The notes: a model not told the origin generated them from the letters alone. Shown: positions 16,750 through 44,733, numbered from the stretch's first letter. The stretch: 64,000 nucleotides of DNA from an uncultured Myxococcales bacterium (GCA_937889515.1 CALAOV010000136.1:1061-65060), one strand, 5' to 3'. Numbers and translations are program-made.

Positions 16750-16837
16750 GCCAATCTCACGGCAACCTCACAAGAGACATCGCGGAAGCGCCGGGGTTCC
16801 CTGGCCTGCGTCGGGAAACATTCAACGCCCGCCCATG

Positions 16838-16936
16838 AAGCCACACGTCATCTGCCACATGATGGTCTCGCTGGACGGTCGCATTCATCCGAGCCGCTGG
16901 ACGGCGAGCCCGGACGGCAACCGCCAGGACTGGACG
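16838..16936 (+). pseudogene. Orphan 5' fragment (33 codons) duplicated from the RibD-C/DHFR-family gene at 19175
   Basis: It encodes MKPHVICHMMVSLDGRIHPSRWTASPDGNRQDW. The DNA is about 94% identical to 19175-19273 and then diverges. Confidence 0.45.
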
Positions 16937-16940
16937 ACGG

Positions 16941-17498
16941 TCACTGTTGTCTCGTGTCGAGGACGCAGTTTCGCGACGCTTCGAAGTCGCTCCGATCCCG
17001 ACACATCCGGCGCTGGTCAGGACTCGGCCGGGGCGGCAGTTCCGGGTCGACGACGGTCGCCGACGAAGGCTCCCCGGGCATGAACGTCCCACCGGCGTCT
17101 CCCGGCCGCGGGGTCCGGTAGACGATGCACGTCGCCGAATAGACTTGAAACGAGCTATCGAAATACGTCAGCCCAGTGGGTCTGGTCGTCGAGCTGGGAG
17201 CCGCGAGCAACAAGGCATCGCAGCCCTTCTCGCCGCCACTCTGACGCAAGGCCCAGATCAAACTGGCCGGCGTTTCGTAGCCTCCTCCACCCTCTTGAAT
17301 TGAGATGAGGCCGACGTCGACATGGGGCCGTTCCGGCGGCGTGCTGGAGAAGACCTGAATCTGTTCGGGCCTGCGCGCCTCGGGGTCGTGGGGCGGAGCG
17401 TTCAGCGGTGTGTACGTCACCGTGGTCTCGGCGCAGCCGCTGAGCCAAATACCGAGGACCAGCCCGCAGCGCAGCCAGCGGCTCGACGAAATCAACAT
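16941..17498 (-). CDS. Hypothetical lipoprotein
   Basis: The signal peptide is MLISSSRWLRCGLVLGIWLSGC. The longer 17564 start is probably an extension. Confidence 0.45.
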   Translation of the reverse strand: MLISSSRWLRCGLVLGIWLSGCAETTVTYTPLNAPPHDPEARRPEQIQVFSSTPPERPHVDVGLISIQEGGGGYETPASLIWALRQSGGEKGCDALLLAAPSSTTRPTGLTYFDSSFQVYSATCIVYRTPRPGDAGGTFMPGEPSSATVVDPELPPRPSPDQRRMCRDRSDFEASRNCVLDTRQQ

Positions 17499-18455: not shown

Positions 18456-19049
18456 CTACTGGATGGTTGAGGGGCAGAGGTTCGGGCAGTTGGTGCTTGC
18501 GCAGGACTGCAGCGGGGCCAGCTCGGCGCCGGTGGCAGCCCCTGTGGCGTGCTGGATGTAGGCTTGGCAGCCCGAACTGTTCTCGCAAGCGTTGAACTGC
18601 TCGCAGCAGTACGTCGCCAGACAAGTGTTGCAGTCGGCGCTCGCCAAGGTGAAGGCGTCCGGGATCAACGTGCATGCTCCGCCGGCGCCCCCTGCGCCAG
18701 CTGCTCCGCTTGCGCCGGCGGTCGACTGACCACCTGTTCCACCGACGCCCCCGGCTCCGCCCGCTGCTTGGCCGCCAGAACCCGCTGCCGCACCGCCCGC
18801 GCCCGTCGCCTTTCCGGCCTCGCCCCCGGCGCCCGCTTGACCGGACACGCCACCGGCTCCGCCCGCGCCGGCCGGCTGAACGCAGAGGTTGGAGAGACAC
18901 TCCAATCCGGTGTCGCAGGTCCCGTTGCTGAAGCAGGGACCGCCGACGCTGCCGGCCGCCTTCGAGCTACTTCCGCAGCCCGCGAGCACCGCCGCGGTCA
19001 ACGTCACGCCAAACAGTGCTCCCAGTACACAACGCAAAGATAGCCTCAT
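18456..19049 (-). CDS. Lipoprotein with Gly/Ala-rich linker and Cys-rich C-terminal domain
   Basis: The lipobox is LAGCGS. A low-complexity AGGAGG tract is followed by a domain with 12 Cys. Confidence 0.5.
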   Translation of the reverse strand: MRLSLRCVLGALFGVTLTAAVLAGCGSSSKAAGSVGGPCFSNGTCDTGLECLSNLCVQPAGAGGAGGVSGQAGAGGEAGKATGAGGAAAGSGGQAAGGAGGVGGTGGQSTAGASGAAGAGGAGGACTLIPDAFTLASADCNTCLATYCCEQFNACENSSGCQAYIQHATGAATGAELAPLQSCASTNCPNLCPSTIQ

Positions 19050-19174
19050 TGCTCTCGACGCCTAACACGACGACGCGAAGGAGACAAGTTGCTGTCGCGG
19101 CACAGCAACCCAGCCCGCCAGGCCTCCCCGATTGGCCGCGGCAACCGCGGCGCTTCGGTGATATCAACGGCCGA

Positions 19175-19875
19175 ATGAAGCCGCACGTCATCTGCCACAT
19201 GATGGTCTCACTCGACGGTCGCATTCACCCGAGCCGCTGGACGGCCAGCCCGGACGGCAACCGCCAGGACTGGGGGAAGGTCTACGAAGACGTGCACGGC
19301 GCGCTGGCGGGTGACGCCTGGCTGGTCGGGCGCGTGACGATGGCGGAGATGAGCAAGGGGACGCCGCACCCACCGTCGCGTCCCGAGAAGGTCGCGCGGC
19401 CGCACCACTTCGCGAAGCGCGACGCCGTGACGTACGCGATCGCCTTCGACCGCTCGGGCAAGCTGCACTTCGCCAAGGCCGACATCGGCGGCGACCACGT
19501 CGTCGTGCTGCTCGGCCCGGGCGTGCCGGACGCCCACCTCGCGGAGCTGGCGGGCGACGGCGTGTCGTACGTCGTCGCGGCGGACGAGGAAATGGCGGCG
19601 CGGCCGCTGTTCGAGGTGCTCGGACGCGAGCTGGGCATCAAGCGGCGCTCGTCGAAGGCGGCGGCAACGTGAATGGGTCGCTGATGGCGGCGGGCGTGGT
19701 CGACGAGGTGAGTTTGCTAGTCGCGCCTGCCATCGACGGGGCGCTCGGGGTCACGGGGGTGTTCGAGGTGCCGGCGGCGGCGGGGCTCGCGGGCAAAGTG
19801 CGGCTAAGGTTCGTGGGGAGCGAGGCGCTCGCGCACGGGGTGGTGCGGCTGCGGTATGGGGTGGAACCGGGCTGA
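19175..19875 (+). pseudogene. RibD C-terminal domain / dihydrofolate-reductase-family reductase, disrupted by a +1 frameshift near 19640-19650
   Basis: The N-terminus MKPHVICHMMVSLDGRI and the segment GDAWLVGRVTMAEM match this family. The reading ends at ...ELGIKRRSSKAAAT*. The conserved LVEGGGNVNGSLMAAGVVDEVSLLVAP... continues in the +1 frame to 19875. Confidence 0.55.
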
Positions 19876-20022
19876 GGGCGACGGATGTCCCTGCGATCTA
19901 TAGTCCTCCGCGCGTGCGACCTCTCGCGACGTTCCGATCGAGGCTATGCCGTGGCCTATTCGAGAGCGTATCGCCGTCGACCTATGTGGGCCAATGGCCC
20001 CGGCGAGTGAGCGCAGAGTTTC

Positions 20023-22950
20023 TCAGTTAGCGGCGATTTCCTGAACCTGGCCCTTGCTTATTGCGTCGCGCACGACCTCACGCTCTTCGATAGGCAATTC
20101 CAATAGGGCCCGCTCATCGCCACTATCCCGGTAATTCAGTCCTACTCGCAGCATTTTAAGAGCGACCGCGCAATCCTCCGCCTCAGCAAGGCGTCTCTCT
20201 AAAGCAACACTAGCCTCTTTCCATTCGTGCCCGTTAGAAACGCGTATTGCCAGCGCGAGTATGACGAACCCTACGACTACGTTCGCGAACGCGTCCTCGG
20301 GCCCCCGGCTACCAAGTGCAGTCCTAACCTTCTCAACTGCTCGCACGGCCGCGTTTGGGCCTTTTCGCCGGAGCTCGACCTCGAGAAGGCCTATGATAGT
20401 CAAGGCTAGTAGCTGTGGTCCGGCATCCGAAAACACCTGGAATTCGCTCACGAACTGATTCAGCGCACCGTCGAATCCGTCGACAGCCGCTAGAGCGCGT
20501 AGATACTGCATTTTGACGATTGGGGATCCCGGCTCAAGGGTAATCGTCGTTCGCATGGCATCGAGTGCCGCCACAAAGTTTCCCCGCTGTTCTTCGATTT
20601 CGGCCATCCACTGCCACGCTCTAGCTCTCTCGGACGCTGACGGCCAGTCAGCATGGATCATGCGCCGGATCTCCCGTTCGCCCTCGGCGACCTTGCCGAT
20701 GTGAGTAAGCGCATGGATCTTCGTCAGCGTCGCAGATCCACTCCTGGGATCTATCGCCAAAGCCCTGTCAGCTGCTTGCGAAGCCTCAGCATACTCATGT
20801 TTAGCTTCGTACGCATTTGCCAGCTCTACCCATCCGTTAACCCAGTTTGGCTCGTCTTCAACCAGTCTTTGCATCTCGCTAACTGCCTCATCGACCCGAT
20901 CCAAGGCACGGAGAAGCTCACCCCGCGTTACCTTGTGCTCTCTCTCTCCTGGTTCGAGCTGCTCAAGACGAAGCAACGTCTCCAACGCCTCCGTCTCTCG
21001 GGAAAGCTCTCTCAGTAGGAATACTTTTCGATCCAGAACATACACGTCGTCCGGCTCGACCGAGAGTGCTCTATCGAGGTAGGTCAAAGCGTCCTCAGGA
21101 GTCCTTCCCAGTAACTCCGACATTGCGATATAGGGAAATATCGACTGGGGAAGGCGTTCAATGCCGCTCTGAGCTGCCGCGATGGCCTCATCGTGGCGCC
21201 CGCTCTTCTCAAGCGCCAGCGCCATAACGTAGTATGAATGAGCGTGCGTTGGATTAACATCCAACAATTTCCTTTCGCTCTCGATCGCCTCTTGGCACCG
21301 GTTAAGCGCCAAGAGAATCGTACCATGCAGGCAACTCGCACCCTTTGAAGTCGGATCTAGCTCCAGTGCTCGCGTAAGTTCGGTGAGAGCTTCGGGTGAC
21401 CTCTTCAAATCGTTGAGTGCATCTGCCTTCCGAAAGAAAAGGTAAGAATCGTTCGGATGTCGGATAAGTCCCCGTTTGGCCACTTCCAATGACGATGAAC
21501 TATTGCCGCGTCTCGATTCGATCAATGCCAGAGTGCCGAAGTCCTTGGCACTGCCGCGCTCACTTACGACTTGCTCCATCGCGCTGGCTGCCGCTACGAA
21601 ATCGCCCCTGTCGTAGCAGCGCTCCGCTTCATCGAAAAGAGCGGCCAGCAACGGCTCGGTACTGTCTCGTTCGCCTCGGTCGATAGCTTCCTCGAGATGA
21701 CAACGGTCTAGGAGATGACGATCGGTGGGCTCGTGTGAAATCGCCTCAAACCGGGTCTTAAGTTCCCTTAGCAAGAACCAACGCCGCAAGAAGTCCACAA
21801 ACAGCTCGAGATGTCTTGTGCGTTTGTCCTTTACCTCGAAGCACAGACGCATAAGTGGTTCTGCCAGTTCGCAGTATGTGTCACGACCCACCGACGTCCG
21901 TCGTACGAAGCCAAGTCGGGACAGCTCGCCTAGTTGCTTCGCCGCTGTCTGAGGAGAGATGAGGCATCGGTTGGCGACATCTTTAACCATGGTCGGAATG
22001 TGCTGCTGAGCGAGGAATTCAATGAGCTTTCGCTGTTGCGGCGCCAGTAGACGGATCCGATCCTGATAATAGGGCGTTAGGTCGTCGATCATCTTCATAA
22101 ACGGGGGGAAGAGATCGTCGAGCGACTCCCGGGTCAGGAAGTCCGACATCACGATATAGACTCGATGGAAGCCTCCGGCCAAATGGTGAATCGCCCTAGC
22201 ACGGGCTCGGCCCAGAGGTGAGTCCAGCGCGATAGCTAGATCCCGTCGGCCATCTAAAAGTGCCTTCTGCTTCAGCAGACTCAGAGCGCCTTCGAAGTCG
22301 AGCAATTCCAAACGCCGGATCGTGAAGAATCCGAAGAATGGCGATGATTGAAGTTTCATCCCGGCGAATAGTGCGGGACTTGTGGCTAAGATAGTCCAGA
22401 AGGGCTTTGACTGCATAAAGGCGCGCCAACGGTGCTGGCCCTCGGTTCCTAGTCCATCGAAGATATCGACGAGGTTTTCACAAATCAGAAGGAGAGTATC
22501 GTGTCCGACATACTCTGAGAGGAGAGACTCGGCGGTTTCGCGAGCGACCGTTGGAGAATGGGCGTGGAGGTCGTATAAACGATCTATTCTCTGCGTGAGG
22601 CCTGGTGTGGAGGACGCTAGGGCTTTGAGAATGCGGATGAGAAAGTCTAAATACGACGCGACTCCCCATTCCTCTTCATTGAGAAACGCGATTTTCAATT
22701 GCGAGCGCGCGGATGCCCAGCGGGCATCGTGAGTGAGTCGGTGGTGGAGGAGCTCAAGAAAATGCGTCTTACCGACCCCGCGCTGGCCGATAAGCAGGAA
22801 GAAGTGCTTCGCCCGTGTGGTCGCGGATTCGGCCAGCCTGCCGAGGATATTGTCGAGCAGTTCTGTTCGGCCGACGAAGAGACTATCGAGAGCCTCTGGA
22901 GTCATGTTCCCAGGGCTATAGCGAGAACTAGTGACGATCGCGCGACTCAT
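20023..22950 (-). CDS. Large P-loop NTPase (STAND/Arch_ATPase-like) with winged-helix and C-terminal TPR array
   Basis: FVGRTELLDNILGRL precedes the Walker A motif IGQRGVGKTHFL. The Walker-B-like motif is LLLICENL. A wHTH-like segment is MVKDVANRCLISPQTAAKQLGELSRLGFV. Multiple TPR-like helical repeats span residues ~450-900. The gene is about 57% GC against ~70% for the window. Confidence 0.7.
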   Translation of the reverse strand: MSRAIVTSSRYSPGNMTPEALDSLFVGRTELLDNILGRLAESATTRAKHFFLLIGQRGVGKTHFLELLHHRLTHDARWASARSQLKIAFLNEEEWGVASYLDFLIRILKALASSTPGLTQRIDRLYDLHAHSPTVARETAESLLSEYVGHDTLLLICENLVDIFDGLGTEGQHRWRAFMQSKPFWTILATSPALFAGMKLQSSPFFGFFTIRRLELLDFEGALSLLKQKALLDGRRDLAIALDSPLGRARARAIHHLAGGFHRVYIVMSDFLTRESLDDLFPPFMKMIDDLTPYYQDRIRLLAPQQRKLIEFLAQQHIPTMVKDVANRCLISPQTAAKQLGELSRLGFVRRTSVGRDTYCELAEPLMRLCFEVKDKRTRHLELFVDFLRRWFLLRELKTRFEAISHEPTDRHLLDRCHLEEAIDRGERDSTEPLLAALFDEAERCYDRGDFVAAASAMEQVVSERGSAKDFGTLALIESRRGNSSSSLEVAKRGLIRHPNDSYLFFRKADALNDLKRSPEALTELTRALELDPTSKGASCLHGTILLALNRCQEAIESERKLLDVNPTHAHSYYVMALALEKSGRHDEAIAAAQSGIERLPQSIFPYIAMSELLGRTPEDALTYLDRALSVEPDDVYVLDRKVFLLRELSRETEALETLLRLEQLEPGEREHKVTRGELLRALDRVDEAVSEMQRLVEDEPNWVNGWVELANAYEAKHEYAEASQAADRALAIDPRSGSATLTKIHALTHIGKVAEGEREIRRMIHADWPSASERARAWQWMAEIEEQRGNFVAALDAMRTTITLEPGSPIVKMQYLRALAAVDGFDGALNQFVSEFQVFSDAGPQLLALTIIGLLEVELRRKGPNAAVRAVEKVRTALGSRGPEDAFANVVVGFVILALAIRVSNGHEWKEASVALERRLAEAEDCAVALKMLRVGLNYRDSGDERALLELPIEEREVVRDAISKGQVQEIAAN

Positions 22951-24107
22951 GTCCGGTTCTCACGCCACCAGCGCTTCAGGAGCGGCCAGCGAAAGCCGTA
23001 TAGGCCGCCAGAGAGAGAGAGGTAATGGTCGCGCCGAAGATCGACGCATGTCGCTTTGACGTCCTCGTCAGTCCACTGGTCATTGCTGTGGCGTACGAGG
23101 TTTGTAAGTGTCTCGAGAGTGATGCCCCCGTCCGCACGGGCTATGGCATCTAGTACTGCCAGAGCCCGGGCTACCTCGGGAGCGTCATAGTGAGTCGAGA
23201 TGCGTTCAACGTAGTAGCCAAAGTTGGCGACGTCGTCATCGTCGGAGAGAAGCTTCGTAACCACGGCCTCGACGTCGGCGGCCATGGGTGCTCGTCCGAG
23301 GAGGCTAAGCTGGTCCACAAAGTGATGTACGTGGTACGGGTATCCTCCTGTAGCGTCGACGATCAACGCCGCCACGGCGGGTATATCAGGGGGTGGAGAA
23401 GGGAGGTGTCCAAGTGCCCTGGTGGCGACCTCTTCCGCTTCGGTTCGAATCATGGGCGGGACGGTTTCGAGCTGCATGTCGTTAATAGGTGCGTTTGAGT
23501 TGCCGGACTTTCTAAGGCCGCGCAGCACGAGATGGAGGCCAATGGACCCGTTGAGCAGAAACCGCAGTCGCGCGCCGTGCATCTGCCGGAGGTGTCTCAG
23601 GAGGTCCAGAAGCTCGATCGCTGTGTTAGGACCCTCTCGTTGGACGATGTTGTAAAGCATCAACGGAAATTCGTCCCAGATGAAGATCACCTTGTGATCG
23701 GGTTCCACTGCATCAAGGACATCCTCGATCGCCCCTGAGAGTAGGGCTTTCCATTTCGAAAAGGCTTGCGGGAGTTCGAGATTGCCGAGCTTTGTTGGCA
23801 GAAAGCCGTCCCAGACTTCGATGGCGCGTGCTTTGGCCCGCGCGGCCCGGGGTAGGTGGTCCCGAACCGTGCGATAGACGGATCGGACGAGCTCGAGGAC
23901 GCCATGAATGGCCTCGAGTTCTTGGAAGAAGGTGACCGCTCCGGTACGACCCTCCTCGTGCATTTTTAGGACGATGTGGGTTTTCCCGATTCGGCGCTCA
24001 GCTCCCAGAACGAGGCTCTGGCGCTCAAGGATCGTCCAGTAGCGGGCTACCTCGGCCGTGCGGCCGACAATTTCGTCGATGCTGAGATGGCCACCCGGAT
24101 TAATCAT
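22947..24107 (-). CDS. AAA+/Arch_ATPase-like P-loop NTPase, paralogous in its ATPase core to 20023-22950
   Basis: IVGRTAEVARYW precedes the Walker A motif LGAERRIGKTHI. The Walker B motif is VIFIWDEFP. It overlaps the downstream NTPase-TPR gene by 4 bp, and its GC is low. Confidence 0.7.
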   Translation of the reverse strand: MINPGGHLSIDEIVGRTAEVARYWTILERQSLVLGAERRIGKTHIVLKMHEEGRTGAVTFFQELEAIHGVLELVRSVYRTVRDHLPRAARAKARAIEVWDGFLPTKLGNLELPQAFSKWKALLSGAIEDVLDAVEPDHKVIFIWDEFPLMLYNIVQREGPNTAIELLDLLRHLRQMHGARLRFLLNGSIGLHLVLRGLRKSGNSNAPINDMQLETVPPMIRTEAEEVATRALGHLPSPPPDIPAVAALIVDATGGYPYHVHHFVDQLSLLGRAPMAADVEAVVTKLLSDDDDVANFGYYVERISTHYDAPEVARALAVLDAIARADGGITLETLTNLVRHSNDQWTDEDVKATCVDLRRDHYLSLSGGLYGFRWPLLKRWWRENRT

Positions 24108-24235
24108 GGTCGTAAAAATACGTTAAAAACGACGTACGTCAAGTACGTCGTACGTTGAAAATAACGTATATTGGCCGCCGGTTAGTAAGTTATTGAAATA
24201 CTGTATGTATTTGTTGGATACCGGGCGCCGGCTTT
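24108..24235 (-). promoter_or_regulatory. AT-rich promoter/operator region upstream of the NTPase operon, with ACGT-core imperfect palindromes
   Basis: The sequence TACGTTAAAAACGACGTACGT caagt ACGTCGTACGTTGAAAATAACGTA is the AT-richest stretch in the window. Confidence 0.3.
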
Positions 24236-24238
24236 CGG

Positions 24239-25027
24239 CTACCCCCGCCGCGTCTTCCTTCCGTACCCCAACTCCGCCCCCCCCGACAGCACGTGATCGA
24301 CCCCCGTCGTGAACGTCGCCTCCGCCGCCAAATACAGACACAGCCGCCCCGCCTCCTCGATCGTCCCCATCCGCCCGAGCAACTGCGCCGCCTCGCCCGA
24401 CGCGCGCGTCGCGGCCGGGTCGTCGGACGCGTCGATCGCTTCCTGCCAGAGCGGCGTGTACACATTCCCCGGCGAAACGGCGTTCACGCGGACCTCGTAC
24501 TCGGCCTCGTCGACCGCCAGCGCCTTGGTCAGTGCCGTGATCGCGCCCTTCGTCGCGACGTACGTCGTCGCGTGGAGCTGGCCGATGGCGCCGACGAGGC
24601 TGGACATGTTGATGATGTTGCCCTTCACCTTGCGCAGGTGGGGCAGGGCGAACTTGCAGGCGGCGAAGATGCTCACCAGGTTCAGGTCCAGCAGGTGGCG
24701 GAAGTCCTGCACGGAGAAGTCGTCGATCGGCTTGTGGTCCGGGTGCCAGCCGGCGTTGTTGATGAGGCAGTCGAGCCGCCCGAACTTTCCGACCGTCTCG
24801 TCGATCAGCGTGCGGACGTCGTCGACCTTGCTGACGTCGCACTGGACAAAGTGGGCGCGCCCGGGCCCGTGCGTGTTGAGGTGCGCCGCGACGGCCTGGC
24901 CGTCCTCGGCGTTGCGCGCGCAGAAGACGACGTCGGAGCCGCCCTCCTCGACGAAGGCGCGCACGCACCCGAAGCCGATCCCTTTGCTGCCGCCGGTGAC
25001 GACGACGACCTTGTCTTTGTAACGCAT
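24239..25027 (-). CDS. SDR-family oxidoreductase (candidate L-fucose 1-dehydrogenase)
   Basis: The Rossmann motif TGGSKGIGFG is present. The catalytic residues are S..Y..K (SSLVG...YVATK). It is the last gene of the sugar ABC transporter operon. Confidence 0.75.
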   Translation of the reverse strand: MRYKDKVVVVTGGSKGIGFGCVRAFVEEGGSDVVFCARNAEDGQAVAAHLNTHGPGRAHFVQCDVSKVDDVRTLIDETVGKFGRLDCLINNAGWHPDHKPIDDFSVQDFRHLLDLNLVSIFAACKFALPHLRKVKGNIINMSSLVGAIGQLHATTYVATKGAITALTKALAVDEAEYEVRVNAVSPGNVYTPLWQEAIDASDDPAATRASGEAAQLLGRMGTIEEAGRLCLYLAAEATFTTGVDHVLSGGAELGYGRKTRRG

Positions 25028-42382: not shown

Positions 42383-44733
42383 CAGTGGTGGGCCGCCACG
42401 GTCACCCGCGTCCTATCTTCTCCGCGGTCTGGGTGGCGGTCGCCGCGTGGCTGGGCATTTGCGTGGCGTGCGTCGATACCGGGCGCTCCGCTCCGGCGGA
42501 CGCCTCCGCCGGGCCGGGCCCCGTGCAGCCCGTCACCTGTGCGCCGGCACCGCCCGTCGCGTACTCCGGCAATGCCGTCATCCCCTCGGGCGATACGGCG
42601 ATGGCCGGCCCCTACGCGTGGAAGAACGCCGTCATCAAAGGTGGGGGCTTCGTCAGCGGCATCATCACGAGCCCAGCGCTCAAGGGACTCGTCTTCGCGC
42701 GGACGGACGTCGGAGGCGCCTACCGTTTCGACCCCGCCAACCAGCGCTGGACGCCGCTCACCGATTGGGTCGGGCATAGCACTCCGGGGCTCGTCGGGAT
42801 CGAGAGCATTGCGGTGGACCCGGTCGATCCCAACAAGGTCTATGTCGCGGCGGGGCAGTACCTCGGCTCCGGCAACGGCACGATCCTGAGCTCGACCGAC
42901 ATGGGACGCACCTGGAACCAGAACAACATTTCCGCGCCCATGGGCGGCAACGCGGACGGGCGCTCGATGGGTGAGCGGCTGGCGGTCGATCCCAACCTGC
43001 CCAGCACGTTGTACTTCGGCTCGCGCAACGCGGGCCTGTGGAAGAGCACGGACTCCGCGCAGACCTGGACGCAACTTGCGGGTTCCCCATCTGTCGACGG
43101 CGTAGGTGCCGGCAACAGCCCAGGGACGGGGTACGGGTTGACGTTCGTGGTGTTCGATCCGCAGAGCGGCTCGCCGGGAAGCGCTACCCCGGCGATCTAC
43201 GTCGGCGTCGGCACGACCACTGGGCCTAGCCTCTATCGTTCCACCGACGCCGGCGCGACCTGGGCCGCGGTCGTGGGGACGCCCGCCGGCATGATGCCGC
43301 ACCATGCGGTCCTGGATGGCTGCGGCGACCTCTACCTCACGTACAACAACGGCTCTGGTCCCAACAGCGTGACCGCCGGCGCCGTCTGGCGATACACGCC
43401 GCCGATCGGGCTCTGGACCAACGTGAGCCCTCCCGGCGGTGGCTTCGGTTTCGGCGGAATTTCAGCCGACGCCGCTCATCCGGGAACGCTGCTCGTCACG
43501 ACGATCGACGACTGGTCGCCCGGCGCGGTCTACCGGACCATCGACGGCGGCGCGAGCTGGACGCCACTTCCCGGCGCGTCGCACGGGAATGTGGCGGGCG
43601 CGCAATGGCTCTACTGGCACACCAGCAACCTGCCCGCGATGGGCTGGATGGGCGACATCGAAATCGACCCCTTCGATTCAAACCATGCCCTCTTCATCAC
43701 GGGCCAAGGCCTCTGGTCGAGCGACGACGTCACGACGGCCGACAGCGGCGGCGCGACCAGCTGGACCTTCGCCGACGACGGTCTCGAGGAGACGGTCGTG
43801 CTCGACCTCGCCAGCCCTCCGGCTATCGCTCCGGCCGTCGTCGCCCCCCTGCTGAGCGGGGTCGGCGACATCGGCGGGTTCCGGCACGACGACCTCACCG
43901 TCTCGCCCACGAGCGGCATGTCCGCCAATCCGATCTTTGGCAACACGAGCAGCCTCGACTTCGCCGAGAGCGCGCCGCTCGTCGTCGCGCGCGTGGGCAC
44001 GGCTTCGTCGTCCCCCAAGCAAACCGGCGCCTATTCCACGGACGGAGGCACGAGCTGGACGGCCTTCGCCAACCTTCCGACGGCAACCGGAAGCACCACG
44101 CCGAACTCGGGATCGATCGCGGTCGCGGCCGATGGCAGCACCTTCGTCTGGGTTCCGAAGAGCGGCACGCCCTCTTACACGACGGACAAAGGCACGACCT
44201 GGACGGCGTCGACGGGCCTCACGTCGGGCGCGCTGGTGGCCTCCGACCGGGTCAATCCTTCCAAGTTCTACGCGAGCGGCCGGGGCACGATGCTCGTGAA
44301 CACCGACGGCGGCCAGACGTTCAAGGCGACCACGGCCACCTCGTCCGGGCGGCCGCGCCCCGTGTTTGGCATCGAGGGGGACGTTTGGGCGTCCACAAGC
44401 AGCGGCCTGATGCGCTCGCAGGACTCGGGCGCGACCTGGCAGCCGGTGGCCGGGGCGACCGGCGCCAGCGCGGTGGGCTTCGGGATTCCGGCGACGCCAG
44501 GAGCCTACCCGGCCGTATTCCTGGCGGGCTCCGTGATGCTCCCCGGCTCCGCCACCGCTGTCTGGGGCATTTACCGCTCCGACGACGCCGCGATGAATTG
44601 GCAACGAATCGACGATCCGCAGCACCAGTTCGGGAGCATCGGCGTCCTGGCCGGCGACCGCAACCAGTACGGCCGGGTCTATCTCGGCACCGGCGGGCGG
44701 GGAATCGTCTATGGCGATCCGCAACCGCAATAG
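42379..44733 (+). CDS. GH74-family (xyloglucanase-type) BNR/Asp-box twin-propeller lipoprotein
   Basis: The N-terminal block WKNAVIKGGGFVSGIITSP...VFARTDVGGAYRFD is GH74-like. There are multiple SxDxGxTW repeats. It is 784 aa. Confidence 0.75.
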   Translation: MTVVGRHGHPRPIFSAVWVAVAAWLGICVACVDTGRSAPADASAGPGPVQPVTCAPAPPVAYSGNAVIPSGDTAMAGPYAWKNAVIKGGGFVSGIITSPALKGLVFARTDVGGAYRFDPANQRWTPLTDWVGHSTPGLVGIESIAVDPVDPNKVYVAAGQYLGSGNGTILSSTDMGRTWNQNNISAPMGGNADGRSMGERLAVDPNLPSTLYFGSRNAGLWKSTDSAQTWTQLAGSPSVDGVGAGNSPGTGYGLTFVVFDPQSGSPGSATPAIYVGVGTTTGPSLYRSTDAGATWAAVVGTPAGMMPHHAVLDGCGDLYLTYNNGSGPNSVTAGAVWRYTPPIGLWTNVSPPGGGFGFGGISADAAHPGTLLVTTIDDWSPGAVYRTIDGGASWTPLPGASHGNVAGAQWLYWHTSNLPAMGWMGDIEIDPFDSNHALFITGQGLWSSDDVTTADSGGATSWTFADDGLEETVVLDLASPPAIAPAVVAPLLSGVGDIGGFRHDDLTVSPTSGMSANPIFGNTSSLDFAESAPLVVARVGTASSSPKQTGAYSTDGGTSWTAFANLPTATGSTTPNSGSIAVAADGSTFVWVPKSGTPSYTTDKGTTWTASTGLTSGALVASDRVNPSKFYASGRGTMLVNTDGGQTFKATTATSSGRPRPVFGIEGDVWASTSSGLMRSQDSGATWQPVAGATGASAVGFGIPATPGAYPAVFLAGSVMLPGSATAVWGIYRSDDAAMNWQRIDDPQHQFGSIGVLAGDRNQYGRVYLGTGGRGIVYGDPQPQ

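What the first reader, a model, noticed from the sequence alone, without database searches (positions are those of the whole stretch)
19876..24240. Low-GC island carrying a two-gene operon of paralogous P-loop NTPases (NTPase-only, and NTPase-wHTH-TPR): candidate undescribed STAND-like defence/signalling module
This ~4.4-kb block is about 55-58% GC in a window that otherwise runs at 68-72%. It ends in the AT-richest stretch of the window. It holds only two genes, which overlap by 4 bp. One is a 386-aa NTPase (Walker A LGAERRIGKT, Walker B IFIWDEFP). The other is a 975-aa protein whose N-terminal NTPase has the same VGRT..-WalkerA / hhhhDE/CE layout, followed by a winged-helix-like segment and a long TPR array. 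An NTPase + wHTH + TPR architecture is what STAND sensors such as Avs/AVAST use (established), but here there is no fused or neighbouring nuclease, protease or other effector, and the partner is a second NTPase. The island lies in a TA-rich accessory stretch, next to a frameshifted housekeeping-type gene whose 5' end is duplicated 2.3 kb away, which suggests a past insertion or rearrangement. I do not recognise it as a named defence system. It could equally be a regulatory NTPase pair, so the defence role is inference only.
Basis: partly seen in the sequence, partly recalled or inferred. Interest (0 to 1): 0.8.

Follow-up and report, generated by a model that had tools for sequence, protein, structure and literature searches.

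The report
Mobile self-regulated two-ATPase sensor cassette
The low-GC island is real and carries a widespread, horizontally transferred, uncharacterised pair of ATPase genes that comes with its own deeply conserved promoter-operator, which points to a self-regulating DNA-binding sensor switch whose biological role (phage defence is plausible but unproven) is still unknown.

Summary
Two translationally coupled genes on the minus strand, A (386 aa, 22947-24107) and B (975 aa, 20023-22950), lie in a compositionally foreign block.

The pair is an obligate cassette. A is directly followed by B in about 72 of 78 genome loci from at least 10 phyla. No third gene is conserved. The cassette usually has lower GC than its flanks, and cross-phylum identities reach 83%.

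A folds like PF01637, ORC/Cdc6 and STAND ATPases and has a canonical Walker B motif. B has a degenerate Walker B, an ArsR/MarR-type winged helix, a variable TPR array and a conserved C-terminal helical domain.

The new result is a cis element. Upstream of A there are 3-6 tandem 16-bp units (core palindrome TTGACGTACGTCAA) that build the -35 and -10 boxes. They occur in 57 of 66 loci, about 550-fold enriched over the rest of the loci. Distant relatives carry different palindromes together with a different B recognition helix. This points to autoregulation by B.

No effector domain, PADLOC match, phage copy or close plasmid copy was found. Known defence genes lie nearby in 4 of 12 fully annotated contexts, which is suggestive only. 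I rate it a new variant of a known kind, interest about 0.6.

The parts
24111..24174 (-). Promoter-operator: four tandem 16-bp units (CCAATATACGTTATTT / TCAACGTACGACGTAC / TTGACGTACGTCGTTT / TTAACGTATTTTTACG). The -35 TTGACG is at 24142-24137 and the -10 TATTTT at 24120-24115. Only 7 nt separate the -10 from the ATG, so a leaderless transcript is predicted.
   Evidence: Sequence. Three copies at exactly 16-nt spacing (D4). Promoter scan hit TTGACG-16-TATTTT. The same element lies upstream of A in 57/66 loci, at 7.7/kb against 0.014/kb elsewhere.
24175..24238 (.). AT-rich spacer between the operator array and the stop codon of the convergently flanking SDR gene. With the operator it forms the AT-richest stretch of the window.
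   Evidence: Minimum GC: 24113-24212 is 0.34 and 24155-24214 is 0.32. The AT-richness is not conserved in relatives.
22947..24107 (-). Gene A, 386 aa. Conserved N-terminal INPGG..VGR motif; Walker A [AG]ERR[IL]GKT (nt 23979-24002); canonical Walker B hhhhWDE (nt 23670-23687); conserved disordered loop at aa 203-216; helical domain with GGFPY; C-terminal winged helix with a DHY motif and a Trp/Arg-rich last helix (nt 22950-23183).
22051..22899 (-). Gene B, aa 18-300: NTPase plus helical domain. Walker A GxRGxGKTH is intact. Walker B is hhhhC-E-N, with no Asp-Glu pair. Conserved loop at aa 193-211.
   Evidence: The profile's best PDB sequence hits for this part are ORC4 (5.5e-6), Cdc6, RFC and RuvB. 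AAA_16 scores 28.9 bits, below the cut-off.
21829..22050 (-). Gene B, aa 301-374: ArsR/SmtB/MarR-type winged helix with a nearly invariant recognition helix SxQTAAKQ(L/I)GEL and a GRxT(Y/F) wing. This is the proposed operator-binding domain.
   Evidence: PDB profile hits SmtB 1.2e-5, NmtR, CzrA, MarR and AspA. NCBIfam ArsR/SmtB 4.3e-5. MarR_2 and HTH_5 score above the Pfam cut-off in short-B relatives. Conservation and co-variation with the operator.
20461..21714 (-). Gene B, aa 413-830: TPR superhelix of about 11 repeats, the putative ligand sensor. It varies in length across the family or is absent.
   Evidence: Pfam TPR families from 3.5e-25. AF2 helical repeats with pLDDT >90. Family B lengths run from 418 to 1192 aa. 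Within one clade the NOD is 65-90% identical and the TPR/C-terminal part 45-58%. Short-B cassettes lack the array.
20026..20460 (-). Gene B, aa 831-975: conserved C-terminal all-helical domain (W910, Y940, LLxLPxExR) with no family match.
   Evidence: Invariant columns. Helices 837-974. No Pfam or PADLOC hit.
19876..20022 (.). 3' intergenic spacer between the stop of B and the end of the frameshifted RibD_C-like gene. It is the left edge of the compositional island. No terminator was predicted on the minus strand.

Best explanation
The island is one copy of a self-contained, horizontally mobile, autoregulated two-gene cassette.

Shown:
- A and B are inherited together and are translationally coupled.
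- The cassette carries its own sigma-70-type promoter. This promoter is built from tandem 16-bp units with the palindromic core TTGACGTACGTCAA.

Inferred:
- The ArsR/MarR-type winged helix of B binds these units. Because they cover the -35, the spacer and the -10, B represses the operon.
- A (canonical Walker A/B) and B (nucleotide-binding, but with a degenerate Walker B) form a hetero-oligomeric ORC/STAND-like NTP switch. In it B is the sensing and DNA-binding subunit, through its TPR array, and A is the catalytic partner.
- Ligand binding to the TPR array changes the oligomeric or DNA-bound state.

Reasoning on the output: no effector domain and no conserved third gene exist. The output must therefore come from A-B themselves, through DNA binding or transcription control and/or NTP turnover.

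Most likely role (inference from mobility, patchy distribution and partial co-location with restriction-modification (RM), Abi and TIR genes): a conflict or defence-type sensor, rather than a regulator of a host pathway.
For: - Co-occurrence: A is immediately followed by B in about 72 of 78 genome loci. Only the A and B clusters recur among 4818 flanking ORFs. Pairwise identities of A and of the B NOD correlate at r = 0.96. One 1150-aa protein is an A-B fusion.
- Operator: the core lies within 200 nt upstream of A in 57 of 66 loci, about 550-fold enriched over the rest of the loci. The consensus shows a 16-bp period and contains the -35 and -10.
- Metagenome scan: of 28 exact two-unit operator matches, 17-19 lie next to A/B. 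These include a B-only cassette and very divergent short-B cassettes.
- B winged helix: it resembles SmtB, ArsR and MarR. The recognition helix is near-invariant wherever the ACGT operator is present. It differs in the Moraxella and Clostridium relatives, which carry other promoter palindromes, and in L064, which has a variant operator.
- Walker asymmetry between A and B.
- Mobility: GC3 of 0.60 and 0.67 against at least 0.80 for the host genes. The cassette has lower GC than its flanks in 44 of 59 loci. Identity between Gamma-, Alphaproteobacteria and Acidobacteriota reaches 78-83%. On one contig the cassette sits inside an HGD-D/BcrAD gene cluster.
- Defence context: RM, Abi or TIR genes lie within about 5 kb in 4 of 12 fully annotated contexts. 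A distant A-like plus B-like pair sits in an operon with a PD-Lambda-4_A / Avs4-N-like protein.
Against: - No binding, ATPase or phenotype data exist. B as the operator binder rests on conservation, on one B-only cassette (two contigs) and on three co-variation cases.
- There is no effector domain, PADLOC match or Avs model hit.
- The nearest-neighbour tallies are dominated by housekeeping genes, and 5 of 12 full contexts show no defence, TA or mobile-element genes.
- The cassette is absent from 2.9 M viral contigs and 50,697 phage records, and nearly absent from 72,556 plasmids.
- The TPR region is only moderately divergent, unlike hypervariable sensors.
- Orphan operator arrays in front of unrelated genes fit a regulon at least as well as they fit relics.
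Confidence: 0.45

Rival explanations
1. Signal-sensing transcription factor with a host regulon (MalT/LAL- or RRNPP-like logic). The TPR array of B senses a small molecule or peptide. The A-B oligomer then binds arrays of the 16-bp unit at its own and at unlinked promoters, and controls host genes. The cassette is not an immune system.
For: - DNA-binding wHTH plus TPR plus NTPase in one protein.
- Arrays of direct repeats at a promoter, as with MalT boxes.
- Genuine multi-unit arrays without adjacent A/B in at least 5 distinct metagenome contigs. One lies directly upstream of a ManC-like nucleotidyltransferase and one upstream of an ECF sigma factor.
- No effector.
- Many housekeeping neighbourhoods.
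Against: - The cassette moves between phyla without any target genes. A transcription factor that arrives without a regulon has nothing to regulate.
- Operator matches elsewhere in the roughly 1.2 Mb of flanking DNA are at chance level: 17 seen, about 20 expected by my own calculation.
- Within the 64-kb window there is one exact core, at the cassette's own promoter, and a single one-mismatch unit at 43138.
- The array covers the -35 and -10 of a near-consensus promoter, which indicates repression rather than activation.
- The orphan arrays may be relics of lost cassettes.
Confidence: 0.25
2. Canonical Avs-like abortive-infection sensor. The TPR array of B recognises a phage protein, oligomerisation follows, and a cryptic effector kills or arrests the cell. 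Candidates for that effector are the C-terminal domain of B, the Trp/Arg-rich C-terminal helix of A, runaway ATP hydrolysis by A, or a recruited host enzyme. The operator only keeps expression low.
For: - HGT signature.
- RM, Abi or TIR neighbours in 4 of 12 contexts.
- A distant relative is linked to an Avs4-N / PD-Lambda-4_A-like protein.
- The C-terminal domain of B is conserved and unassigned.
Against: - In published Avs families the effector is a recognisable domain and is required for cell death (PMC13581612, section 11). No such domain is present here.
- Short-B cassettes lack the sensor array altogether yet keep A, the NOD-wHTH and the operator.
- There are no Avs HMM hits.
- The sensor is only moderately divergent.
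Confidence: 0.2
3. Initiator-iteron module of an integrated or defunct replicon. The ORC/Cdc6-like AAA+-wHTH proteins bind adjacent iterons next to an AT-rich unwinding region. The rep-like gene is autorepressed, as in iteron plasmids and in archaeal orc1-ORB origins.
For: - ORC/Cdc6 and PF01637 are the closest structural and sequence neighbours.
- There are 3-6 tandem direct repeats next to the gene.
- In the window, the AT-richest stretch abuts the repeats.
Against: - There is no close homologue on 72,556 plasmids or in viral collections.
- No replication, partition or mobility genes are conserved nearby.
- The AT-rich stretch is not conserved in relatives.
- The repeats coincide exactly with the promoter hexamers.
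- A TPR sensor is not a feature of initiators.
Confidence: 0.04

Closest known systems
Antiviral STAND NTPases (Avs/AVAST) and bacterial NLR-like proteins
   Same: P-loop NTPase followed by a helical and winged-helix module and a long TPR-type sensor. Patchy distribution, horizontal transfer and atypical composition. Occasional location next to RM/Abi genes.
   Different: No N-terminal or neighbouring effector. An obligate second NTPase subunit. A sequence-type (ArsR/MarR-like) DNA-binding winged helix and a conserved operator. No match to any Avs or other PADLOC model. The TPR array is dispensable in some relatives.
MalT / LAL / AfsR-type STAND transcription regulators
   Same: NTPase plus TPR-like sensor plus DNA binding. 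Binding sites occur as arrays of short direct repeats at promoters. Oligomerisation-dependent logic is plausible.
   Different: The DNA-binding domain is a MarR/ArsR-like wHTH placed between NTPase and TPR, not a C-terminal LuxR HTH or an N-terminal SARP. The array overlaps the -35 and -10, a repressor geometry. There is no adjacent regulated pathway. A partner NTPase is present. No family HMM match.
ORC/Cdc6 initiators and PF01637 'archaeal ATPase' proteins (PDB 2qen, 2fna)
   Different: No replicon context. Pfam PF01637 is not reached by the window proteins: A has no hit, and distant relatives score 28.5-32.8 bits against a cut-off of 33.2. The TPR sensor is absent from these families.
Paired sensor/helper NLRs (plant RGA5/RGA4-type pairs, animal NAIP-NLRC4) - analogy only, from general knowledge
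   Same: Two genetically linked paralogous NTPases. One carries the recognition domain and the other is a more conserved partner.
   Different: Independent lineage. The partner carries no signalling or pore-forming domain. Nothing is known about oligomer formation here.
Iteron-Rep autoregulation in plasmids - analogy in cis logic, from general knowledge
   Same: Tandem 16-22-bp repeats and a palindrome overlapping the promoter of the gene whose product binds them.
   Different: Not found on plasmids. The proteins are P-loop NTPases with a TPR array, not Rep proteins.

Membership tests
Avs / antiviral STAND | NTPase module of NBD, helical domain and winged helix | tested here: met
Avs / antiviral STAND | C-terminal repeat sensor of at least 400 aa | tested here: met
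   B aa 413-830 is a TPR superhelix. It is variable or absent in relatives.
Avs / antiviral STAND | Fused or adjacent effector domain (nuclease, protease, SIR2, TIR and similar) | tested here: not met
   No such domain in A or B. No conserved third gene in 78 loci.
Avs / antiviral STAND | Match to Avs or other defence-system profile HMMs | tested here: not met
   PADLOC-DB v2: the best hits are E 1.6e-3 and 7.9e-5, over the wHTH only. DefenseFinder was not available.
Avs / antiviral STAND | Statistical association with known defence genes | tested here: inconclusive
   4 of 12 fully annotated contexts have RM, Abi or TIR genes within about 5 kb. Tallies of 246 nearest ORFs show only a few defence-type hits. 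The published null is 1.5% (PMC13581612), but the methods are not equivalent.
Avs / antiviral STAND | Phage-protein-triggered oligomerisation and cell death | not testable with these tools
   Needs co-expression screens and plaque assays.
MalT / LAL / AfsR STAND regulators | Dedicated LuxR-type (C-terminal) or SARP (N-terminal) DNA-binding domain | tested here: not met
   No LuxR/GerE or SARP hit. BTAD is only at E 0.016 and lies within the TPR region. The DNA-binding candidate is an internal ArsR/MarR-like wHTH.
MalT / LAL / AfsR STAND regulators | Linked regulated pathway genes | tested here: not met
   Flanks differ in every locus.
ORC/Cdc6 - PF01637 ATPase_2 | Profile match above the family threshold | tested here: not met
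   A has no Pfam hit. For B, AAA_16 scores 28.9 against a cut-off of 32.6. Distant A-like relatives reach ATPase_2 at 28.5 and 32.8 bits against 33.2.
ORC/Cdc6 - PF01637 ATPase_2 | AAA+-like core followed by a C-terminal winged helix (fold) | tested here: met
ArsR/SmtB-MarR winged-helix DNA-binding domains (B aa 301-374) | Sequence-profile similarity to the family | tested here: met
   PDB hits SmtB 1.2e-5, NmtR, CzrA, CadC and MarR. MarR_2 at 31.3 bits (cut-off 27) and HTH_5 at 24.3 bits (cut-off 22) in the short-B relative L107. For the window protein itself the scores are sub-threshold (MarR_2 19 bits).
ArsR/SmtB-MarR winged-helix DNA-binding domains (B aa 301-374) | Binds a palindromic operator at its own promoter | not testable with these tools
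   Inferred from operator conservation and co-variation. Needs EMSA or footprinting.

The most novel reading that the evidence does not exclude
A previously unrecognised class of prokaryotic immune or conflict sensor. It is an effector-less, paired ORC/STAND-like NTPase system, with a sensor subunit B and a catalytic helper subunit A, analogous to paired NLRs. Its output is DNA binding or transcriptional reprogramming through a portable 16-bp iterated operator that has travelled with the cassette across more than 10 phyla.
Probability: 0.25. Interest if true: 0.85.

Novelty: new variant of a known kind. Interest (0 to 1): 0.6.

Why it matters
The cassette is widespread: 586 50%-identity clusters at E<=1e-30 and at least 10 phyla. 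It is under strong purifying selection and is repeatedly transferred between phyla. It has no Pfam family for A, no name, and no description that I could find in the literature searched.

It does not fit the accepted rule that STAND-type sensors act through a recognisable effector domain. So it is either a new output mode for NLR-like machines or a mobile regulatory switch of unknown purpose.

The conserved operator gives an immediate experimental handle, through EMSA, reporter assays and ChIP. Cultured carriers exist: Archangium gephyra, A. violaceum Cb vi76, Sorangium sp. So ce394 and Lyngbya confervoides BDU141951. The question is therefore directly testable.

Tried and rejected
- PADLOC, NCBIfam and Pfam scans of A and B gave no system or family assignment beyond TPR and sub-threshold AAA_16/wHTH.
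- The PDB sequence profile of A gave only P-loop-level Clp hits. The full-length B profile and a Foldseek search of the B model were swamped by TPR proteins.
- Clustering all ORFs within 10 kb either side in 82 loci, to find a conserved third gene or effector, found nothing outside A/B and their shadow frames.
- Phage or plasmid carriage: none in IMG/VR or INPHARED. Only three plasmid relatives, at 22-24% identity.
- Operator in viruses: the two-unit pattern gave 3 contigs, which appear to be overlapping pieces of one sequence, with a single unit pair each. The 14-bp palindrome gave 60 single sites and no arrays. This looks like chance occurrence, although no expected number was computed.
- Flanking direct or inverted repeats that would mark an insertion mechanism: none convincing.
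- Rfam: no RNA family in 16-26 kb.
- Literature: no description of this pair was found in the STAND survey (PMC13581612), in the NTP-dependent conflict-system survey (PMC7159879) or in four keyword searches. Supplementary tables were not available, so membership of one of the 589 published STAND clades could not be checked.
- The AFDB fold library was unavailable.
- The inserts that interrupt gene A in L062 and L076 could not be identified.
- hhalign of the A and B profiles aligned only the wHTH region, so paralogy of the NTPase domains is not proven by sequence.

Full report
**1. Observation**

The two minus-strand ORFs exist exactly as described. Gene A is 22947-24107 (386 aa) and gene B is 20023-22950 (975 aa). 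They overlap by the 4-nt ATGA.

The block is compositionally foreign:
- GC is 0.53-0.59 in 500-nt windows, against 0.64-0.75 around it.
- The 2-kb bins give 0.559 and 0.573, against 0.65-0.73 for the rest of the window.
- GC3 is 0.60 and 0.67, against 0.80-0.98 for every other gene.
- The three most deviant 2-kb tetranucleotide windows of the 64 kb all fall in 20-24 kb (z 2.9-3.8).
- The AT-richest 100 nt of the window is 24113-24212, at 34% GC.

The flanks are ordinary metabolic genes. On the right lie an SDR gene and a sugar ABC transporter. On the left lie a RibD_C-like gene, a YdeI/OmdA gene and LUD-domain genes. The RibD_C-like gene is frameshifted near 19672. Its first roughly 120 nt are duplicated 2.34 kb away at 90% identity. 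No tRNA and no Rfam family lie nearby. Identical copies of the locus occur on three soil-metagenome contigs, and all three carry the cassette.

**2. The proteins**

A has no Pfam, NCBIfam or PADLOC family, yet it belongs to a tight family:
- A 26-sequence alignment has 63% mean column identity.
- An exhaustive HMM search of 1.84 billion representatives finds 586 clusters at E<=1e-30 and 1791 at E<=1e-10. Nearly all are 380-400 aa long.
- A therefore has the ORC/STAND-type layout of P-loop core, helical domain and C-terminal winged helix.
- Its Walker A ([AG]ERR[IL]GKT) and Walker B (hhhhWDE) are invariant.

B (model pLDDT 85.4) has the same element order in its first roughly 375 residues. This includes a conserved disordered loop after the fourth strand. 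Then come about 11 TPRs and a conserved helical C-terminal domain.
- Its Walker A is intact, but its Walker B is hhhh[C/I/V/A/M]-E-N, without an Asp-Glu pair. From this I infer nucleotide binding with weak hydrolysis. Such asymmetry is typical of heteromeric AAA+ assemblies.
- A profile of the B N-terminal part is closest by sequence to ORC4/Cdc6/RFC in its NTPase region.
- In residues 300-375 the same profile is closest to ArsR/SmtB, MarR and AspA DNA-binding winged helices.
- In short relatives this domain passes the Pfam MarR_2 and HTH_5 cut-offs.
- hhalign aligns A and B only over the winged helix. The collinear architecture supports 'paralogous'; sequence does not prove it.

**3. The pair is an obligate, mobile cassette**

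In 78 GTDB-representative genome loci from many phyla, B starts at or within a few tens of bases of the stop of A in about 72. The phyla are Myxococcota, Gamma-, Alpha- and Betaproteobacteria, Acidobacteriota, Planctomycetota, Cyanobacteria, Verrucomicrobiota, Gemmatimonadota, Bacteroidota (Rhodothermaceae), Binatia and others. The exceptions are contig ends or visibly disrupted copies.

Further evidence for a co-inherited unit:
- Clustering all 4818 ORFs of these loci recovers only A, B and their shadow frames as recurrent. No third gene is conserved.
- Pairwise identities of A and of the B NOD correlate at r = 0.96.
- One representative is an A-B fusion of 1150 aa.

Evidence for mobility:
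- The cassette has more than 3 GC points less than its flanks in 44 of 59 loci. The mean is -5.1 and the extreme -17.
- A is 78-83% identical between Gammaproteobacteria, Paracoccaceae and Vicinamibacterales MAGs.
- Flanks differ everywhere. On one contig the cassette sits inside an HGD-D/BcrAD gene cluster.

The cassette is absent from IMG/VR and from phage records. Among plasmids only 22-24% relatives exist.

**4. New finding: a conserved promoter-operator**

It consists of tandem 16-bp units with the consensus ..TACGtC....TTGACGTACGTcA.aattg.CGTAT.aT. The central unit supplies a -35 TTGACG inside the perfect palindrome TTGACGTACGTCAA. The next unit supplies the -10 (CG)TATAAT, 16 nt downstream.

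- The 11-mer core (at most 1 mismatch) lies within 200 nt of the A start in 57 of 66 non-redundant loci. Its density there is 7.7 per kb, against 0.014 per kb elsewhere. The 17 hits elsewhere compare with about 20 expected by chance, by my own calculation.
- The window copy is 24111-24174, with four units. Three of them were found independently at exactly 16-nt spacing. The promoter scan reports TTGACG-16-TATTTT at 24142-24115.
- Only 7 nt separate the -10 from the ATG and there is no Shine-Dalgarno sequence, so a leaderless mRNA is predicted. The same holds in myxobacterial relatives. Most other relatives have a GGAGG leader.
- Some loci carry 5-6 or more units (L012, L078).
- An exact two-unit pattern scan of the metagenome collection returned 28 contigs, of which 17-19 are A/B cassettes. 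They include cassettes whose A is only 27-31% identical and whose B lacks the TPR array (431-493 aa). They also include a B-only cassette in which an 868-aa B follows the operator directly.

**5. Who binds the operator**

This section is inference. The recognition helix of B, (S/T)xQT..(K/S)Q(L/I)..L, and its wing GRxT(Y/F) are almost invariant in every locus that has the ACGT operator. That includes the very divergent short-B forms.

The distant Moraxella and Clostridium plasmid relatives also have an A-like gene followed by a B-like NTPase-wHTH gene.
- They carry different promoter palindromes. Moraxella has a triple AACTATA-N4-TATAGTT with TTGACT in the middle copy. Clostridium has TTGACAAAACAATTTTTGTCAA.
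- They also have a different helix start, SKT or SKE.
- L064, which has a variant operator, has ENS at that position.

By contrast, the third helix of A's winged helix is acidic and variable. It ends in a DHY motif that resembles the nucleotide-contacting MHD histidine of NB-ARC proteins; this resemblance rests on general knowledge and was not tested. B is therefore the likely operator-binding subunit. Because the array covers the -35, the spacer and the -10, binding should repress.

**6. Function**

No effector domain is present in A or B, and none is encoded nearby in any locus. This separates the cassette from published Avs families. In those families, effector mutation abolishes activity (PMC13581612).

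Neighbourhood evidence for defence is mixed:
- Among 246 nearest and second-nearest flanking ORFs, only a few hit integrase, PIN, AbiL, methylase or PDC-type models. Most are housekeeping genes.
- In the 12 contexts with full Pfam annotation, four have RM, Abi or TIR genes within about 5 kb. They are L001 (TIR_2), L003 (type III-like methylase plus helicase), L180 (two AbiEii, PIN-FitA, integrase) and L182 (MmeI).
- Two more contexts have TA toxins and several have transposases. Five have nothing of the kind.
- Against the published null of 1.5% within 5 kb this looks enriched. However, n is small and the criteria are not equivalent.
- A distant A-like plus B-like pair shares an operon with a protein matching PD-Lambda-4_A (5.6e-127) and the Avs4 N-terminus (2.3e-67).

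On the other side, multi-unit operator arrays occur without adjacent A/B on at least five metagenome contigs. One lies upstream of a ManC-like gene and one upstream of an ECF sigma gene. These could be regulon sites or relics of lost cassettes.

A cassette that moves between phyla without target genes is hard to reconcile with a dedicated host regulator. That is why I rank a self-contained conflict or defence-type switch first (0.45). The regulon-type transcription factor is second (0.25). A canonical Avs-like system with a cryptic effector is third (0.2). An initiator-iteron replicon remnant comes last (0.04).

**7. Comparison and novelty**

- The cassette works like a STAND/ORC-type NTP switch with a TPR sensor.
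- It fails the Avs membership tests on effector and on HMM match.
- It fails the MalT/AfsR tests on DNA-binding-domain type and on a linked pathway.
- It does not reach the PF01637 threshold.
- I found no description of the pair or of the operator in the papers searched. I could not check the supplementary clade tables of the 2026 STAND survey.

I classify it as a new variant of a known kind: a paired, effector-less NTPase sensor with its own portable operator.

**8. Verdict**

- Observation: confirmed.
- Interest: about 0.6.
- Most novel reading not excluded: a new class of effector-less paired NLR-like immunity acting through DNA binding (probability about 0.25, interest 0.85 if true).

Noticed in passing
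window 16822-16942 and 19164-19282; 19016-19875: The RibD_C-like gene next to the island is frameshifted near 19672. Its first roughly 120 nt (identical first 32 codons, MKPHVICHMMVSLDGRIHPSRWTASPDGNRQDW) are duplicated 2.34 kb upstream at 90% identity. The upstream copy continues into unrelated sequence. The 2.3-kb segment between the copies holds a YdeI/OmdA gene and hypothetical genes, so it may be a separate insertion or rearrangement.
   Followed up: partly
L106:221-300; L110:140-215 (=L102); L100:770-811 (=L113); L101:60-110; L089:430-470: Genuine multi-unit copies of the 16-bp operator array occur with no A or B gene detectable nearby. One lies directly upstream of a ManC-like nucleotidyltransferase (L106). 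One lies upstream of a small ORF and an ECF sigma-DUF3738 gene (L110). They could be regulon sites or relics of lost cassettes.
   Followed up: partly
L105:8267-9029 and L108:1602-4233: A B-only cassette: an 868-aa B-type protein (NTPase, MarR-like wHTH, TPR) follows the operator directly. No A gene was detected on the 5-kb contig.
   Followed up: partly
L104:306-2767; L107:3580-6221 (=L115); L098; L111: Very divergent cassettes (A 27-31% identical) have a B of only 431-493 aa that lacks the TPR array. They still keep the exact ACGT operator.
   Followed up: partly
L083:3826-10868 (Moraxella osloensis plasmid AP031474.1): A distant A-like gene and a B-like NTPase-wHTH gene (709 aa) overlap a 1248-aa gene that matches PD-Lambda-4_A and the Avs4 N-terminus. 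A gene of more than 1500 aa follows. The promoter carries its own triple palindrome AACTATA-N4-TATAGTT.
   Followed up: partly
L062:10609-14433; L076:10567-12857; L061; L079: Decayed copies. Gene A is interrupted by inserts of 3.8 kb and 2.3 kb that carry an unidentified ORF of about 480-495 aa (no PDB sequence match). In two other MAGs the cassette is truncated.
   Followed up: partly
L010-L043, L073, L074 (OZ/OY/CBD and SB/RHO/COS/CAR MAGs): One clade of cassettes is 65-83% identical across Gammaproteobacteria, Paracoccaceae, Vicinamibacterales, Bryobacterales and Rhodothermaceae MAGs. Several bin names look like marine-sponge microbiome bins. The source was not verified.
   Followed up: no
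L012 upstream of 10001; L078 upstream of 10001: Expanded operator arrays: at least six tandem copies of AGACTTGACGTGCGCC in L012 and five TTGACGTAT units in L078, against three or four in most loci.
   Followed up: no
L184:13779-15017; L179:14085-15326: In two loci an extra gene of about 412 aa follows B. In L184 it overlaps the stop of B and has no Pfam hit. In L179 it is a TPR protein. These may be split-off C-terminal parts of B.
   Followed up: no
window 43138-43148: A single one-mismatch copy of the operator core (TTGACGTTCGT) with no neighbouring units. It is probably a chance match.
   Followed up: no
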